A stretch of 64,000 nt of DNA, taken from assembly GCA_036258175.1 (NCBI GenBank), contig DATAEE010000263.1, forward strand, positions 1,489 to 65,488. The letters are read 5' to 3'. The translations under genes and the position numbers were made by a program. The DNA is from Vicinamibacterales bacterium (GTDB lineage Bacteria; Acidobacteriota; Vicinamibacteria; Vicinamibacterales; 2-12-FULL-66-21). The notes below the pieces were generated by a model. It did no database searches. It was not told the origin of the DNA and saw nothing but the letters and a program-made list of their open reading frames with translations. Numbering within the stretch: position 1 is the first letter of the stretch; each line of letters begins with the position of its first letter. This document shows positions 6,409 to 11,382 of the stretch, in pieces.

Positions 6409-8133
6409 TCAGCGCACGTTGGTGGCAAAGATCGTCAAGCGATCGCCGGCCGAGATGCGGTTGCTCCGCAGCCGGTTCCACGTCTTGATTTTCTCGACGG
6501 TCGTGTCGTAGAGCCGCGCGATGCCGAAGAGCGTGTCTCCTCGCTTCACGCGATGGATGACCCGGCTGGATGCCGGGCGTGCATCAGGCGTTTGAGTGGC
6601 CCCGGTCAGCGACCGCGAGACCGCAAGCGATGCGGGCGGCTGCCGGTCCGTGCGGGCGGCCATCAGGGCGGCGGGTGCCCGCGGGATGATCAGCTGCTGT
6701 CCAGTGCGCACCCGCGACTTGAGCGACAAGCCATTGGCTTCCGCGAGATCGGTGCGGCTCACGCCCAGCTTGCGCGCGATCGTTTTGATCGACTCGCCCC
6801 GCTTGACCGTGTGCCACTTGAGGGCCGTCAGCTCCGCCGCGGGCGCCGATGCGAGCTCTGCTCGCAGACGGTCGCCCGAACCGACGGGGACTTTCACGTC
6901 GTACTCGTACTTCACCGGCGTGGTCCAGCGGCGCAGCTCGGGATTGAGCGCCTGGATCTCGTCAATGGTCGTGCCGGCCCATTCGGCGACGCGACGCAGG
7001 TCGACGCCTCGCGGCACCTGCACCTTTTCGTACTCGACCGGCTCGGCCGCCTCGACGGTCAGGCCGTACTGATTGGGATTGCGAGCGATGATCATCGCCG
7101 CGAGGACCAGCGGAACGTACTCGCGGGTTTCGCGCGGCAGGTACCTCGAGGTCGACGTCAAAGCCCAGAAGTCGGTGCGTCCGGACCTCCGCATCGCGCG
7201 CTGGAGACGGCCGAGGCCTCCGTTGTACGCCGCAAGCGCCAGGTGCCAGTCACCGAACTGCCGGTAGAGCGTCTTCAGGTACTTCGCCGCCGCCTGCGTG
7301 GCCTTTTCGGGATCCGACCGCTCGTCGATATACCAATCCGTGCGCAGACCGTTCTCGAGCGCCGTCCCGCGCATGAACTGCCAGACGCCCTTCGCCTTCG
7401 CCCGCGACAATGCGTTGGGTTTGAACGCGCTCTCGATGAGCGGCACGTAGGCGAGATCGAGCGGCAGTCCTTCGGCGCGGAATACGCTCTGGATCATCGG
7501 CAGGTATCTGCTGCCCCGGTTGAGCCCGTCCTGGATGTAATCCCGCAGTTTGCCCTGAAAGAGTTCCACGTACGACAACACGCGCTGGTTGGCTGGAATC
7601 GGGACGTCGTGGCTGGTCTCGGCGAGGTCTGCTTCAACAGCGACGCGGGTGCTCGGCTCCGGCTCCGGCATCGGGAAGGTCGCGATCTCGAGCAGCTCGT
7701 CGATCGATGCCGGCTCGTACCGCTTCTCGTCGAAGCCATCACCTTGCGCGAGCGCCGTGACCTCGTGAGCGTTGATGCGATCGACGAGCCGATCGAAATG
7801 TTCGCGGAGCCGCGCGTTGGTTCGCGCACCCATCGGCGATTCAAGCAGTACGTCGACCGCCCGATCGAATTCAGTGCGTGCTTGCTCGAGATGACCGAGC
7901 TTCAACTCGCGTTCGCCGGCGGCGAAGTGACGCTCTGAAAGCGCGATCAGATCGGAAACCGGATCAGATGGTTTTGGCGGTTGCGGCGCCGCAGCCTGGG
8001 CCGCTGGCGGTGCGGGCGCCGTCTTCGGCGCCGTAGCGGGACGTTCGTTCGTGCTCGCGCAGCCAGCGGCGATCGTGCCCGCCAGCACTGCCACCCACAA
8101 CAGTCTGTCAGCGCGCATCCAGTCGCTCCGCAT
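6409..8133 (-). CDS. Membrane-bound lytic murein transglycosylase with LysM domains (MltD-like lipoprotein)
   Basis: MRSDWMRADRLLWVAVLAGTIAAGCAS lipobox. SLT catalytic region AYVPLIESAFKPNALSRAKAKGVWQFM...LALAAYNGG. Two C-terminal LysM repeats (HTVKRGESIKTIARKLGV..., HRVKRGDTLFGIARLYDT...). Confidence 0.85.
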   Translation of the reverse strand: MRSDWMRADRLLWVAVLAGTIAAGCASTNERPATAPKTAPAPPAAQAAAPQPPKPSDPVSDLIALSERHFAAGERELKLGHLEQARTEFDRAVDVLLESPMGARTNARLREHFDRLVDRINAHEVTALAQGDGFDEKRYEPASIDELLEIATFPMPEPEPSTRVAVEADLAETSHDVPIPANQRVLSYVELFQGKLRDYIQDGLNRGSRYLPMIQSVFRAEGLPLDLAYVPLIESAFKPNALSRAKAKGVWQFMRGTALENGLRTDWYIDERSDPEKATQAAAKYLKTLYRQFGDWHLALAAYNGGLGRLQRAMRRSGRTDFWALTSTSRYLPRETREYVPLVLAAMIIARNPNQYGLTVEAAEPVEYEKVQVPRGVDLRRVAEWAGTTIDEIQALNPELRRWTTPVKYEYDVKVPVGSGDRLRAELASAPAAELTALKWHTVKRGESIKTIARKLGVSRTDLAEANGLSLKSRVRTGQQLIIPRAPAALMAARTDRQPPASLAVSRSLTGATQTPDARPASSRVIHRVKRGDTLFGIARLYDTTVEKIKTWNRLRSNRISAGDRLTIFATNVR

Positions 8134-8320
8134 CAGACGAACCCTAAACCCATGAACTGACTCGACAAACGGTCGAGTTTGTCTGGGCTCAGCGGTAAGC
8201 AAGGGGGGTGCCCAGATCGTGGTTGGGGAAGCGACTAACCCCAATAACTGGTGGCGGACTCTAGCACCCCAACAGCTTGGGGGTCAAGCATAACCTCCAC
8301 CACAACAGCCATATAGACGG

Positions 8321-10093
8321 CTAAATGCTCAGGCCGGCCTGGACGAAGATCCGGTGCTGTTCGGCGAGATCGCGCGCTGCCGGAGTGATTAGCGATCGAT
8401 CACCGATCACAATTTTGCGTCCGTGCTTGATCGCCTGCTTGACGTCCTCCTCGCAGACAAAAGCCGCCGGTTTGTCGCCAACCGATACGGGTTGAGTAGA
8501 CTTTTCCGTCGTTTCGGCGACTCTCGGGGCCAATCCGGCCTTTCCCGGCGCGATTCCCTTCGTCGCGAGAAACTCGTCGATGCGCCGAGTCAATGAAGCT
8601 GCGCTTACGCCGCTCGAAACTGGCGCTGCCGGCGCTCGCAGCACGCTCTCGCGCTTGGGCGCAGCGGCCGCGGTGGGCGCTCCGCTTCCGGTGCGGCGCG
8701 CGATCTCTTTTCGCGGCGCCGCCGGCCTCACTTCGTACGCCAGGCGTTTGATGTTCAGGAGATGACGAGGCGAGATGTTGTCCGACGTGATGTTTCCGCC
8801 CCAGCCGCCACAACCGAGGGTCATTGCCGGATCGAGTCCAGTCGTCAGTCCGACGGACCCATGTGTCGTCGGCGTGTTGACGACGATTCGGCCCGCGGGC
8901 TTCCGGAGGCCGAACTGCAGGATCACCTCCTCGTTCCGCGAGTGGATCGACATGGTGTGCCCCATGCCGCCGTACCGCAGAATCTGGATGCACCGCTCGC
9001 AGCCCTGCTCCCAGTCCTTGACGACGTAGAACGACAGCACAGGGCAGAGCTTCTCAATCGACAGCGGATAGTCTCGGCCGACGCCTTGAAGCTCGGCGAT
9101 GAGGACCGTCGTGTCGGCTGGAACGGTCACGCCGGCCTTCTCGGCGATGTAAGCGGCCGACCGTCCAACCAGCGCCGGATTCGGAAGTCGCTGCGGGCTG
9201 ACGAGCACCTTACCGACGGCGTCGATTTCCGCCGGGCCAAGGAAATGCGCGCCATGGTTCTTGAACTCGCGCCGCACTTCTTCCGCGATCGCCTCGTCCA
9301 CGACGACGGAGTTCTCTGATGAGCAGAGAACGCCGTTGTCGAACGTCTTGCCCGTGATGATGTCGCGAACGGCTTTGTGGAGATCTGCCGACCGCTCGAT
9401 GTACGCAGGAGCGTTGCCCGGACCGACACCATAGGCAGGCTTGCCGGCGCTGTACGCGGCGCGCACGAGACCCATGCCGCCCGTGGCGAGGATGACAGCC
9501 ACGTCGCGATGTTTCATCAGCTCCTGCGTGCCTTCGATCGTGACAGTCTTCATCCAGTTGATTGATCCCTCGGGCGCGCCGGCGCGTAGCGCCGCATCCG
9601 ACATGACCTCCGCGACGCGGGTGATGCATCGGACTGCAGCGGGATGCGGGCTGATGACGATCGGACAGCGCGCCTTCAGCGAGATCAAGATCTTGTAGAT
9701 AGCCGTCGAGGTCGGGTTCGTAGACGGAATCACCGCAGCAACCACGCCAAAGGGTTCGGCGATTTCGACAATCTTCCGCGATTCGTCGCGCCCGACGACA
9801 CCGACGGTCCTGATTGGTTTGATGAAGCGGTAGACCTTTTCCGATGAGAACAGGTTCTTCTGAACCTTGTCCTCGACAACGCCATAACCCGTTTCGTCGA
9901 CGGCAAGCCTCGCCAAGGACTCGGCGGATGCGGTCGCTGCCGCCGCCATGGCGTCGATCAGGGCATCGACCTGCTGTTGGGAGAATTCCGCCAGTTGCGG
10001 CAGCGCCTGTTTGGCGCGCCGCGCGAGCATACGAGCCTCGTGAATCGACGTGAGGTCACGATCAGACTGAGCGGCGGTGGCTTCGGCCGGCAT
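8321..10093 (-). CDS. CoA-acylating aldehyde dehydrogenase (AdhE-N/EutE/PduP type) with a ~120-aa C-terminal extension
   Basis: VIPSTNPTST, ILATGGMGLV, catalytic GKTFDNGVLCSSENSVVV, GGMGHTMSIHS. After ~aa 470 comes an Ala/Pro linker, the amphipathic SAASLTRRIDEFLATKG, then FVCEEDVKQAIKHGRKIVIGDRSLITPAARDLAEQH. It lies 36 nt downstream of the BMC-H gene. Confidence 0.85.
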   Translation of the reverse strand: MPAEATAAQSDRDLTSIHEARMLARRAKQALPQLAEFSQQQVDALIDAMAAAATASAESLARLAVDETGYGVVEDKVQKNLFSSEKVYRFIKPIRTVGVVGRDESRKIVEIAEPFGVVAAVIPSTNPTSTAIYKILISLKARCPIVISPHPAAVRCITRVAEVMSDAALRAGAPEGSINWMKTVTIEGTQELMKHRDVAVILATGGMGLVRAAYSAGKPAYGVGPGNAPAYIERSADLHKAVRDIITGKTFDNGVLCSSENSVVVDEAIAEEVRREFKNHGAHFLGPAEIDAVGKVLVSPQRLPNPALVGRSAAYIAEKAGVTVPADTTVLIAELQGVGRDYPLSIEKLCPVLSFYVVKDWEQGCERCIQILRYGGMGHTMSIHSRNEEVILQFGLRKPAGRIVVNTPTTHGSVGLTTGLDPAMTLGCGGWGGNITSDNISPRHLLNIKRLAYEVRPAAPRKEIARRTGSGAPTAAAAPKRESVLRAPAAPVSSGVSAASLTRRIDEFLATKGIAPGKAGLAPRVAETTEKSTQPVSVGDKPAAFVCEEDVKQAIKHGRKIVIGDRSLITPAARDLAEQHRIFVQAGLSI

Positions 10094-10129
10094 TGGGGCT
10101 TATCGGCGCCGCCCGACCCAAGGTCGGGC

Positions 10130-10402
10130 CTACGATTTCTTGGGAATGATCTTCTCGACCTCGGCGTGCGGTCGCGGAATCACGTGGACCGATACGAGCT
10201 CGCCCACGCGTCGCGCCGCGGCAGCACCGGCATCGGTCGCGGCTTTCACCGCGCCGACATCTCCCCGGACCATGACGGTGACATAGCCGGCGCCGATGTA
10301 CTCTTTCGCGACGAGTACGACGTTCGCAGCTTTCACCATCGCATCGGCCGCTTCGACCGATCCGATCAAGCCGCGTGTTTCGATCAAACCGAGAGCTTCC
10401 AT
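10130..10402 (-). CDS. Bacterial microcompartment shell protein, single-domain BMC-H (PduA/EutM/CcmK class)
   Basis: [79 protein letters not shown] is the textbook BMC-domain pattern. ATG at 10402; the 155-aa ORF in the track is over-extended. Confidence 0.9.
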
Positions 10403-10437
10403 TATGTCCGTTCGCGCGATCTTTCGTTGTGCGGCAG

Positions 10438-10478
10438 AGGCTAACATATTGCCGGAAGTGCGGCAACCGCAGTAAGAT
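10438..10478. promoter_or_regulatory. Divergent promoter region with inverted repeat TTGCCG-N6-CGGCAA
   Basis: Minus strand: TTGCCG (10466..10461), 17 nt, TAGCCT (10443..10438), upstream of the BMC-H gene. Plus strand: TTGCCG (10449..10454), 18 nt, TAAGAT (10473..10478). The two -35 hexamers form a 6-bp palindrome pair. Confidence 0.25.
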
Positions 10479-11382
10479 GCCGGGCTCGATGGACTTAAAC
10501 GTAGCGCGCGGTCTCCTCGTGGTCTGCGTGAGCGCCGGAGCGCTCGCAGGTTGTGCCCCGTCGGACAATCAGCCTCCGGTAGCGACGCCAACCGCAACGC
10601 TCAGCCGCTCGCGCATCCCAGTCGGCGCTCCGCTCGAGGTGACATACCGCTTCGACGTCGCACAGGGCACGAAGATCGATGGCAACTATCGGGTCTTTGT
10701 GCATTTCCTCGACAGCGAGGGAGAGCGGATGTGGGGAGACGATCACACACCGGTTCCCCCGACACCTCAGTGGACTCCCGGTAAGAGAGTCGAATACACG
10801 CGCCTGATCTGGTTGCCGATCTATCCCTACACCGGTGAAACACGTGTCCGCGTCGGGCTCTACGCGGACGATGGCAGCCGGCTTCCTCTGAGTGGCAACG
10901 ACTCGGGCCAGCGCGAATACGAAGTCGCGACGTTTACGCTGCTGCCGCAATCCGAGAACATCTTCCTCATATTCAAGGACGGCTGGTATCCCGCGGAGAC
11001 GCTGTCCGATCAGCCGAACCTGAGTTGGGAATGGACCAAGAAGGAAGCGACGCTCGCGTTCCGCAATCCGAAGCAGGACGTGACCTTCTTTCTCGAAGCG
11101 GACGGTCGAACTGACGTCTTTAACCCACCGCAGCGTGCGACGGTCGTCGTCAATGGGCAGCCGCTGCATACCGTAACGATGGAACGCGACCCGAGGCTGC
11201 ACCGGCTGCCTATCACCGGGGCGCAACTCGGCACGCAGGACATGGTGGAGCTCAAGATCCAGGTCGACCGCGCATTCACCCCGTCGGCCGTACCGACGGG
11301 CCAGCCCGGATACGGGACCGACACGCGGGAGCTGGGCATCCGCGTGTTTCACGCCTTCGTAGCCGCAGATGCACGCAAATAG
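10477..11382 (+). CDS. Hypothetical lipoprotein
   Basis: [30 protein letters not shown] is a signal peptide with lipobox Cys (alternative ATG at 10489). Coding-like composition; I recognise no family. Confidence 0.6.

What the first reader, a model, noticed from the sequence alone, without database searches (positions are those of the whole stretch)
8324..8690. The aldehyde dehydrogenase carries a C-terminal tail with an encapsulation-peptide-like helix plus a EutQ-N-terminus-like motif
The catalytic domain ends near aa 470. About 120 extra residues follow, in four parts:
- an Ala/Pro-rich linker (GSGAPTAAAAPKRESVLRAPAAPVSSG);
- an 17-aa amphipathic segment SAASLTRRIDEFLATKG (about nt 8555-8605);
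- a second linker;
- FVCEEDVKQAIKHGRKIVIGDRSLITPAARDLAEQHRIFV.

A linker followed by a short amphipathic helix is the established hallmark of BMC encapsulation peptides. From memory, the last motif closely parallels the N-terminus of Salmonella EutQ (LITANDIRAAHARGEQ...IITPEAREVAELLG), a region implicated in shell binding. Two putative targeting elements on one enzyme, placed at the C-terminus, next to a lone shell gene, is unusual.
Basis: inference. Interest (0 to 1): 0.6.

Follow-up and report, generated by a model that had tools for sequence, protein, structure and literature searches.

The report
Microcompartment aldehyde dehydrogenase docking tail
This soil-bacterium aldehyde dehydrogenase ends in a targeting helix followed by a 45-residue mini-domain; a 2021 catalogue listed the layout with that domain's function unknown, and the domain matches the part of EutQ that fastens cargo to microcompartment shells.

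Summary
The 590-aa acylating aldehyde dehydrogenase (window 8321-10093, minus strand) has a 136-aa tail. It runs: variable linker, conserved helix (aa 495-513), variable linker, conserved 45-aa module (aa 540-586).

It is not unusual. This is the satellite aldehyde dehydrogenase of the Acidobacteria "ACI" microcompartment. Sutter et al. [quoted passage not shown] The module occurs in 165 of 401 Acidobacteriota genomes searched.

- Profile-profile comparison aligns the module to EutQ residues 5-44 (95.5% probability, P 1.5e-8, far above column-shuffled controls).
- It also aligns to the EutT N-terminus and the PduM C-terminus, and it matches the C-terminus of the TIGR02536 family model.
- A profile built only from enterobacterial EutQ, EutT and PduM ranks this tail first in the whole 6.7-Mb genome.
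- Yang et al. 2025 showed that EutQ residues 9-41 bind the shell.
- Divergent copies sit on RpiB, DeoC, class II aldolase and an aminotransferase in other Acidobacteriota.

The module is most likely a portable shell-docking module. Binding itself is untested. This scan reached the same reading earlier on several other genomes.

The parts
10130..10402 (-). BMC-H shell hexamer gene (90 aa), 36 nt upstream of the aldehyde dehydrogenase on the same strand
   Evidence: Pfam PF00936, E 4.3e-28. Called as a 90-aa gene on an identical metagenome contig. It is the only shell gene on this contig.
8321..10093 (-). Complete aldehyde dehydrogenase coding sequence (590 aa plus stop)
   Evidence: TIGR02518 scores 618.8 bits over aa 11-459.
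8732..10093 (-). Catalytic domain, aa 1-454, of a CoA-acylating (type I, EutH_ACDH-like) aldehyde dehydrogenase; C257 lies in FDNGVLCSSENS
   Evidence: The C257 column is invariant in 108 orthologues.
8645..8731 (-). Linker 1, aa 455-483; Ala/Pro-rich and variable in sequence and length
   Evidence: High column entropy and gaps. pLDDT below 50.
8621..8644 (-). Conserved Pro-rich motif, aa 484-491 (VLRAPAAP here; family consensus LPKAPAxP)
   Evidence: Column conservation 0.7-0.9. Function unknown.
8555..8611 (-). Encapsulation-peptide-type helix, aa 495-513 (GVSAASLTRRIDEFLATKG); hydrophobic face L501/I505/F508/L509
   Evidence: G495, A498, L501, D506, F508, L509 and G513 are invariant. AF2 predicts a helix at aa 498-511. 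Sutter 2021 calls this element an EP.
8477..8554 (-). Linker 2, aa 514-539; Pro/Ala-rich and variable
   Evidence: pLDDT below 50.
8336..8476 (-). Terminal module, aa 540-586 (DKPAAFVCEEDVKQAIKHGRKIVIGDRSLITPAARDLAEQHRIFVQA); EutQ-H1/H2-like, predicted beta-alpha-beta-alpha-beta
   Evidence: Conservation. AF2 mean pLDDT 87.9. Similarity to TIGR02536, EutQ, EutT and PduM termini.

Best explanation
The gene encodes the aldehyde dehydrogenase of an ACI-type bacterial microcompartment. It lies, as is usual for this type, on a two-gene satellite locus with a BMC-H shell gene.

Its tail is a two-part packaging device:
1. An encapsulation-peptide-type helix on a flexible linker.
2. After a second flexible linker, a 45-residue folded module homologous to the H1/H2 region of the EutQ N-terminus.

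The same module forms the N-terminus of EutT and the C-terminus of PduM and of TIGR02536 proteins. Divergent copies sit on other microcompartment enzymes.

By analogy with EutQ H1/H2, the module most likely docks onto shell hexamers. The helix either joins the cargo core or binds between shell tiles. Together they would tether the enzyme to the inner face of the shell, and possibly link shell and cargo.

Shown here: the identity of the locus, the conservation of the tail, the predicted fold, the sequence kinship and the portability of the module.

Inferred: shell binding, the binding partner and the topology.
For: Locus identity:
- The genome has five dispersed BMC-H genes and a BMC-P triplet.
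- The main locus on another contig holds a class II aldolase with a C-terminal EP, BMC-H, three BMC-P genes, a 72-aa Cys-rich protein with an N-terminal EP-like helix, and a 2-hydroxyacid dehydrogenase.
- This matches the ACI description.

Module kinship:
- All 36 diverse modules hit the C-terminus of TIGR02536 (best E 8.8e-5). 15 hit the EutQ N-terminus and 12 hit the PduM C-terminus. Four of the five families matched are microcompartment families; the fifth (TIGR02302) was hit by one member at E 0.083.
- The TIGR02536 model scanned over the whole genome hits only this module (E 0.0032).
- hhalign gives EutQ-N 95.5% probability, P 1.5e-8; EutT-N 87%, P 4e-6; PduM-C 70%, P 4e-5.
- Scores are 39.8, 29.9 and 25.3, against shuffled nulls of about 9.5 +/- 2.2.
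- A profile built only from EutQ-N, EutT-N and PduM-C ranks aa 548-584 first among 92,114 open frames of this genome (E 8.9e-4, next best 0.022).

Function of the matched region: deleting EutQ 9-41 separates shell from cargo, the deleted protein stays with the cargo, and EutQ binds EutM and EutL (PMC12487888). EutQ lacking residues 1-100 loses EutM binding (PMC4827028).

Portability: module copies occur on a class III aminotransferase, RpiB, DeoC and a class II aldolase in other Acidobacteriota. Two of these genes lie within 2-6 kb of shell genes.

This genome has no separate EutQ, PduM or TIGR02536 protein and no second copy of the module.
Against: - No binding experiment and no complex model could be run here.
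- A HMMER profile made only from ACI modules scores E. coli EutQ and EutT at noise level (8.9 and 7.8 bits). The link therefore rests on profile-profile and curated-model comparisons over about 40 residues.
- The PduM alignment covers only 22 columns.
- The helix's hydrophobic moment (0.38) is not above that of shuffled sequence.
- EutQ is proposed to bind at an EutM-EutL interface. ACI shells usually lack a BMC-T protein, so the partner may differ.
- The full-length AF2 model is of low quality (mean pLDDT 65).
Confidence: 0.6

Rival explanations
1. The module is a self-association or cargo-to-cargo domain. It would help condense the enzyme core, or bind another cargo enzyme, rather than bind the shell.
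For: - Encapsulation peptides and extensions often drive cargo aggregation (PMC11585597).
- The TIGR02536 protein is predicted to form trimers (PMC13181095).
- The module sits on several different cargo enzymes, which would equally suit a shared core-condensing tag.
Against: In EutQ the homologous H1/H2 region is the shell-side element. The cargo-side contacts map to H3/H4, and NMR shows no peptide binding by H1/H2. The ACI tail has no similarity to H3/H4.
Confidence: 0.17
2. The module has a non-structural role. It might regulate the dehydrogenase, mask the helix until assembly, or recruit a cofactor-recycling partner.
For: - ACI loci lack an obvious phosphotransacylase or alcohol dehydrogenase partner, so some recruitment function is conceivable.
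- An invariant Cys547 in the ACI family could be redox-sensitive.
Against: - The module is joined by a long, variable, disordered linker.
- It occurs on unrelated enzymes and at either terminus. That pattern argues for a context-independent targeting role, not an enzyme-specific one.
- The Cys is not conserved in EutQ, EutT or PduM.
Confidence: 0.1
3. The resemblance to EutQ, EutT, PduM and TIGR02536 is convergent or due to chance. On this view the module is a lineage-specific domain of unknown function, as the 2021 catalogue left it.
For: - The region is short.
- The ACI-only HMMER profile does not find EutQ or EutT above noise.
- The 'TPAAR' helix also gives weak hits to the unrelated E3_binding domain.
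- No solved structure resembles the model.
Against: - Four independent comparisons agree in register and in terminal position.
- Shuffled controls never approach the real scores.
- The leave-one-out profile ranks the tail first in 6.7 Mb.
- The curated families hit are microcompartment-associated, apart from one single-member hit at E 0.083.
Confidence: 0.08

Closest known systems
ACI-type microcompartment satellite aldehyde dehydrogenase (Sutter, Melnicki, Schulz, Woyke, Kerfeld 2021, Nat Commun 12:3809, Supplementary Data 2)
   Same: - Acidobacterial host.
- The aldehyde dehydrogenase lies away from the main locus, here next to a BMC-H gene.
- An EP lies close to the C-terminus and is followed by a domain of about 50 aa.
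- The main locus has a class II aldolase with a C-terminal EP, a 2-hydroxyacid dehydrogenase, a BMC-P triplet and a short Cys-rich protein.
   Different: Nothing structural: this is one more member. The catalogue gives the 50-aa domain no function or relatives. The kinship to EutQ H1/H2 is added here.
EutQ N-terminal H1/H2 region (Salmonella; Yang et al. 2025 Sci Adv, PMC12487888; Held et al. 2016, PMC4827028)
   Same: A two-helix segment of about 40 residues at a protein terminus. It aligns in register (module 6-43 to EutQ 5-44) with shared [IV]-[TC]-x-x-D-[IV]-R-x-A and I-[IV]-T-P-x-A-R motifs. In EutQ this segment is the shell-binding side of the shell-cargo linker.
   Different: - In EutQ the module is N-terminal and is followed by an EP-binding H3/H4 segment and a cupin acetate-kinase domain.
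- Here it is C-terminal, fused directly to a cargo enzyme that carries its own EP.
- There is no H3/H4-like or cupin part.
- The shell partner may differ, because ACI shells usually lack EutL-type trimers.
Classical encapsulation peptides (PduP, PduD, EutC, EutE N-termini; C-terminal EPs of type I aldehyde dehydrogenases)
   Same: A conserved helix of about 15-20 residues with a hydrophobic face, set off by a poorly conserved flexible linker on a microcompartment cargo enzyme.
   Different: The helix is not terminal: a second linker and a folded module follow it. Its computed hydrophobic moment is modest.
PduM, TIGR02536 'eut_hyp' and EutT
   Same: They carry the same module at a terminus: C-terminal in PduM and TIGR02536, N-terminal in EutT. 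All are microcompartment-associated.
   Different: The remainder of each protein is unrelated to the aldehyde dehydrogenase. The window protein scores far below each family's cut-off (22 against 152.6 bits for TIGR02536).
Shell-cargo linkers PduB(1-37), CcmN and CsoS2
   Same: A possible functional analogy: a flexible element that ties the enzyme core to the shell.
   Different: No sequence relationship, and those are dedicated or shell-borne linkers. A linker role for the ACI tail is conjecture.

Membership tests
ACI-type BMC (Sutter 2021) | Host belongs to Acidobacteria | tested here: met
   Closest named homologues are from Vicinamibacterales. The phylum-level genome search places relatives in the same phylum.
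ACI-type BMC (Sutter 2021) | Main locus with PF00596 aldolase carrying a C-terminal EP, PF00389/PF02826 dehydrogenase, BMC-H, BMC-P triplet and a roughly 80-aa Cys-rich protein with an N-terminal EP | tested here: met
   All are found at G000:C300:36284-39886.
ACI-type BMC (Sutter 2021) | Aldehyde dehydrogenase on a satellite locus, sometimes with a BMC-H gene | tested here: met
   The enzyme is on contig C263 with one BMC-H and no BMC-P; the main locus is on C300. The same two-gene pair occurs in a 3.66-Mb contig of a relative.
ACI-type BMC (Sutter 2021) | EP close to the C-terminus, followed by a domain of about 50 aa | tested here: met
Type I (IPR013357 / TIGR02518) acylating aldehyde dehydrogenase | Score above the curated cut-off of TIGR02518 | tested here: inconclusive
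   618.8 bits against a cut-off of 620.1, just below. It is by far the best-scoring model and covers aa 11-459.
Encapsulation peptide | [quoted passage not shown] | tested here: met
   AF2 helix at aa 498-511 flanked by regions with pLDDT below 50. The linkers are variable and the helix is conserved.
Encapsulation peptide | Amphipathic helix | tested here: inconclusive
   L501, I505, F508 and L509 form one face. However, the hydrophobic moment of 0.38 is reached by 25% of shuffles.
Encapsulation peptide | Necessary and sufficient for packaging | not testable with these tools
   Needs fusion and deletion experiments.
EutQ-H1/H2-type terminal module | Sequence similarity in register with EutQ residues about 5-44 | tested here: met
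   hhalign 95.5% probability, P 1.5e-8, with shuffled controls reaching at most 19.2 against 39.8. Leave-one-out profile gives the top hit genome-wide.
EutQ-H1/H2-type terminal module | Two helices in about 40 residues at a protein terminus | tested here: met
   AF2 predicts H8-17 and H31-40 of the 50-aa module, pLDDT 87.9. The module is C-terminal.
EutQ-H1/H2-type terminal module | Binds shell proteins | not testable with these tools
   Shown only for EutQ.
EutQ protein family (PF06249 cupin / acetate kinase) | C-terminal cupin domain | tested here: not met
   The protein has no PF06249 hit. NF012001 matches only its positions 5-41. The protein is therefore not a EutQ; it shares only the N-terminal module.
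TIGR02536 (eut_hyp) and PduM (TIGR04493 / PF15953) | Full-length match above the curated cut-off | tested here: not met
   22.2 against 152.6 bits, and 14.3 against 50 bits. Only the terminal 40 positions of each model match.

The most novel reading that the evidence does not exclude
The 45-residue module may be a widespread, portable and so far unnamed microcompartment shell-docking domain. It is found on EutQ, EutT, PduM, TIGR02536, the ACI aldehyde dehydrogenase and assorted RpiB, DeoC, aldolase and aminotransferase cargo enzymes.

In ACI organelles, which lack any EutQ-, PduM- or PduB-type linker, the aldehyde dehydrogenase tail (helix, flexible linker, docking module) would itself be the shell-cargo linker that nucleates assembly.
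Probability: 0.4. Interest if true: 0.65.

Novelty: new member of a known kind. Interest (0 to 1): 0.4.

Why it matters
How enzymes are fastened to microcompartment shells is known for only a few model systems. ACI organelles of abundant soil Acidobacteria are entirely uncharacterised.

If the terminal module is a general shell-docking tag, three things follow:
- It gives a function to a catalogued "domain of unknown function".
- It offers a way to recognise encapsulated enzymes in cryptic loci. One example is the aminotransferase and kinase pair seen here, a possible aldehyde source for ACI.
- It offers a second, folded targeting tag for engineering synthetic compartments.

The architecture itself is already published, so the gain is an interpretation, not a discovery.

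Tried and rejected
- The exhaustive profile search of 1.84 billion representatives gave 647 hits, but the 150 listed are mostly C-terminal fragments of the same enzyme. No new carrier families were seen.
- The word-indexed search with EutQ residues 1-50 returned only near-identical enterobacterial EutQ.
- No solved structure matches the module by sequence or by fold (best Foldseek E 0.2).
- An ACI-only HMMER profile does not recover EutQ or EutT above noise in E. coli K-12.
- A class-level sample of Gammaproteobacteria for PduM found it in 1 of 300 genomes. A family-level sample was needed.
- I tested whether the helix region resembles the EP-binding H3/H4 of EutQ, which would make the tail a permuted EutQ linker. 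There is no similarity (P 0.35).
- The hydrophobic moment of the helix is not significant.
- I considered homology to the E3_binding (peripheral subunit-binding) domain (E 0.068). Only one helix matches, so I treat it as local resemblance.
- No second copy of the helix or the module exists in this genome.
- I could not obtain real TIGR02536 sequences, so that link rests on the curated model alone.

Full report
**What is there**

Window 8321-10093 (minus strand) encodes a 590-aa protein. The NCBIfam model for acetylating acetaldehyde dehydrogenase, TIGR02518, covers aa 11-459 at 618.8 bits, just under its cut-off of 620.1. Pfam Aldedh also matches.

A 90-aa BMC-H shell gene lies 36 nt upstream on the same strand, at 10130-10402 (Pfam BMC, E 4.3e-28). 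The same two-gene pair, with the same neighbours, occurs on an identical metagenome contig and in a 3.66-Mb contig of a relative.

**Checking the tail**

I aligned 108 full-length orthologues and measured conservation column by column.
- Catalytic sequence is conserved to E454.
- Three conserved islands follow: aa 484-491 (consensus LPKAPAxP), aa 495-514 (G-I-A-A-x-S-L-A-R-R-I-D-x-F-L-A-S-R-G-Y) and aa 540-586.
- The stretches between them vary in both sequence and length.

AlphaFold2 on this alignment gives a poor overall model (mean pLDDT 65). It still predicts a helix at aa 498-511, disordered linkers, and strand-helix-strand-helix-strand for aa 543-585. Folded alone with 36 diverse sequences, the module reaches mean pLDDT 87.9.

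The tail region matches 926 database proteins at E<=0.01. The named ones come from Vicinamibacterales and soil metagenomes. A profile of the module finds it in 165 of 401 Acidobacteriota genomes (93 of 228 genera), almost always at the end of a frame of about 530-650 aa.

**What the locus is**

The genome holds five dispersed BMC-H genes and one BMC-P triplet. On contig C300 the triplet sits with the following genes:
- a BMC-H gene;
- a class II aldolase ending in an EP-like helix;
- a 72-aa protein with an N-terminal EP-like helix and a Cys-rich end;
- a D-2-hydroxyacid dehydrogenase.

This is the ACI type defined by Sutter et al. 2021. [quoted passage not shown] They also note that type I aldehyde dehydrogenases (IPR013357) generally carry C-terminal EPs.

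So the architecture is published and typical, not unusual.

**Is the end module EutQ-like?**

Scanning the last 49 aa against 18,950 NCBIfam models gave three hits, all to microcompartment proteins and all at a terminus:
- TIGR02536 'eut_hyp', positions 164-204 of 207 (E 8.7e-5);
- PduM, positions 115-151 of 153 (E 0.033);
- EutQ, positions 5-41 of 233 (E 0.079).

All 36 diverse modules hit TIGR02536. 15 hit EutQ and 12 hit PduM.

In the reverse direction, the TIGR02536 model scanned over the whole 6.7-Mb genome in six frames hits one place only, this module (E 0.0032). E. coli EutQ residues 1-50 themselves hit the TIGR02536 C-terminus (E 0.0013).

I collected species-level EutQ loci and extracted 34 distinct EutQ N-termini and 26 N-termini of the adjacent EutT. 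I also collected 13 PduM C-termini. Profile-profile comparison with the ACI module gave:
- EutQ-N: 95.5% probability, P 1.5e-8, module columns 6-43 against EutQ 5-44.
- EutT-N: 87.1% probability, P 4e-6.
- PduM-C: 69.9% probability, P 4e-5, but only 22 columns.

Column-shuffled controls averaged about 9.5 +/- 2.2, with a maximum of about 20. The real scores were 39.8, 29.9 and 25.3.

In a non-circular test, I built a HMMER profile only from the proteobacterial EutQ-N, EutT-N and PduM-C segments. I searched it against all 92,114 open frames of the acidobacterial genome. It placed aa 548-584 of this protein first (E 8.9e-4; next best 0.022).

One weakness remains. An ACI-only HMMER profile scores E. 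coli EutQ and EutT at noise level.

The helix region shows no similarity to any part of EutQ 1-125. No solved structure resembles the module.

**What the matched region does in EutQ**

Held et al. 2016 found that EutQ lacking residues 1-100 no longer binds EutM in vitro.

Yang et al. 2025 dissected the Salmonella protein:
- Deleting H1/H2 (residues 9-41) separates shell from cargo, and the truncated EutQ stays with the cargo.
- Deleting H3/H4 (residues 62-99) leaves EutQ on the shell.
- H3/H4 binds the EutC and EutE encapsulation peptides, and H1/H2 shows no peptide binding by NMR.
- EutQ interacts with EutM and EutL.
- Gram-positive EutQ proteins lack the first three helices. In those loci the module appears on TIGR02536, judging from the model positions.
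- A 2026 structure atlas predicts that the Listeria TIGR02536 protein binds the EutL trimer.

**Portability**

Weaker second matches in other Acidobacteriota turned out to be the same module on other enzymes:
- the C-terminus of a class III aminotransferase that sits next to an APH-family kinase;
- the N-terminus of two RpiB isomerases and of one weakly matching RpiB-like protein (PF02502, E 2.2e-8);
- the N-terminus of a DeoC aldolase, after an EP-like helix;
- the N-terminus of a class II aldolase.

Two of these genes lie 2-6 kb from shell genes, and all five genomes checked for shell genes encode them. A small module that moves between termini of different microcompartment enzymes behaves like a targeting or docking tag.

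The published notes I found on these extensions treat them as EPs or as vaguely EutQ-like, not as a defined family. Examples are the SPU DERA and RPI extensions and the MIC2 dehydrogenase extension.

**Mechanism proposed**

The enzyme is packaged by two elements. The helix behaves as a conventional EP, either joining the cargo core or binding between shell tiles. The terminal module docks on shell hexamers as EutQ H1/H2 does.

This genome has no EutQ, PduM or TIGR02536 protein and no second copy of the module. The tail may therefore also serve as the shell-cargo linker. Binding, partner and topology are inferences, and I could not run a complex prediction.

**Verdict**

The object is a further member of a catalogued family. 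The added value is a well-supported kinship, and hence a likely function, for its "domain of unknown function".

Earlier reports of this scan reached the same reading on other genomes. One of them gave me the EutT lead, which I tested here.

Noticed in passing
L095 (G318:C21:17000-36000) 7515-9989: In another Acidobacterium, a class III aminotransferase-family enzyme (PF00202, 478 aa) ends in the same module (profile E 1.9e-18). It sits directly after an APH-family kinase (PF01636). This resembles the amino-alcohol kinase and phospho-lyase pair of RMM microcompartments, and could be an aldehyde-generating signature enzyme for some ACI organelles.
   Followed up: partly
L096 (G279:C1:6748000-6766000) 8818-10626, minus strand: In a complete 8.76-Mb genome the aldehyde dehydrogenase (530 aa, with two EP-like helices) stops at an in-frame TGA. 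Linker 2 and the module follow in the same frame for 72 codons. This could be a nonsense mutation, a sequencing error or stop-codon readthrough giving two isoforms.
   Followed up: partly
L112, L113, L103, L110, L111 (G251:C235, G291:C48, G235:C278, G059:C5, G033:C9): Divergent copies of the module lie at the N-terminus of RpiB (three times, one weak), DeoC and a class II aldolase. In G059 and G033 these genes are 2-6 kb from clusters of BMC shell genes.
   Followed up: partly
G000:C106:137869-139281 (L010 7870-9282), minus strand: A second satellite BMC-H gene of this genome abuts a PLP enzyme with Ala_racemase_N and D-ser_dehydrat domains (D-threonine aldolase or D-serine dehydratase-like, 371 aa). 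The enzyme has no EP-like extension. D-threonine aldolase activity would yield acetaldehyde.
   Followed up: partly
window 8621-8644, minus strand (aa 484-491): A conserved Pro-rich motif (consensus LPKAPAxP) lies four residues before the EP helix. The sources I read do not mention it.
   Followed up: no
window 8378-8425, minus strand (aa 557-572 region); also L103: The 'ITPAARDLAE' helix gives weak hits to the first helix of the E3_binding (peripheral subunit-binding) domain. E is 0.068 here and 6.4e-4 for the DeoC-borne module.
   Followed up: no
G000:C300:37377-37595 (L009 9378-9596), minus strand: A 72-aa main-locus protein has an N-terminal EP-like helix (EQALRSLIRDAVQRHL) and a C-terminal CNHCGYCLSHGH motif. 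It has no Pfam hit. It matches the short Cys-rich ACI protein mentioned by Sutter 2021.
   Followed up: no
G000 contigs C13:3544-3840 and C72:179-475: Two further lone BMC-H genes have nearly identical products. They sit on short contigs, one of them beside integrase- or transposase-like fragments. They may be a recent duplication or an assembly split.
   Followed up: no
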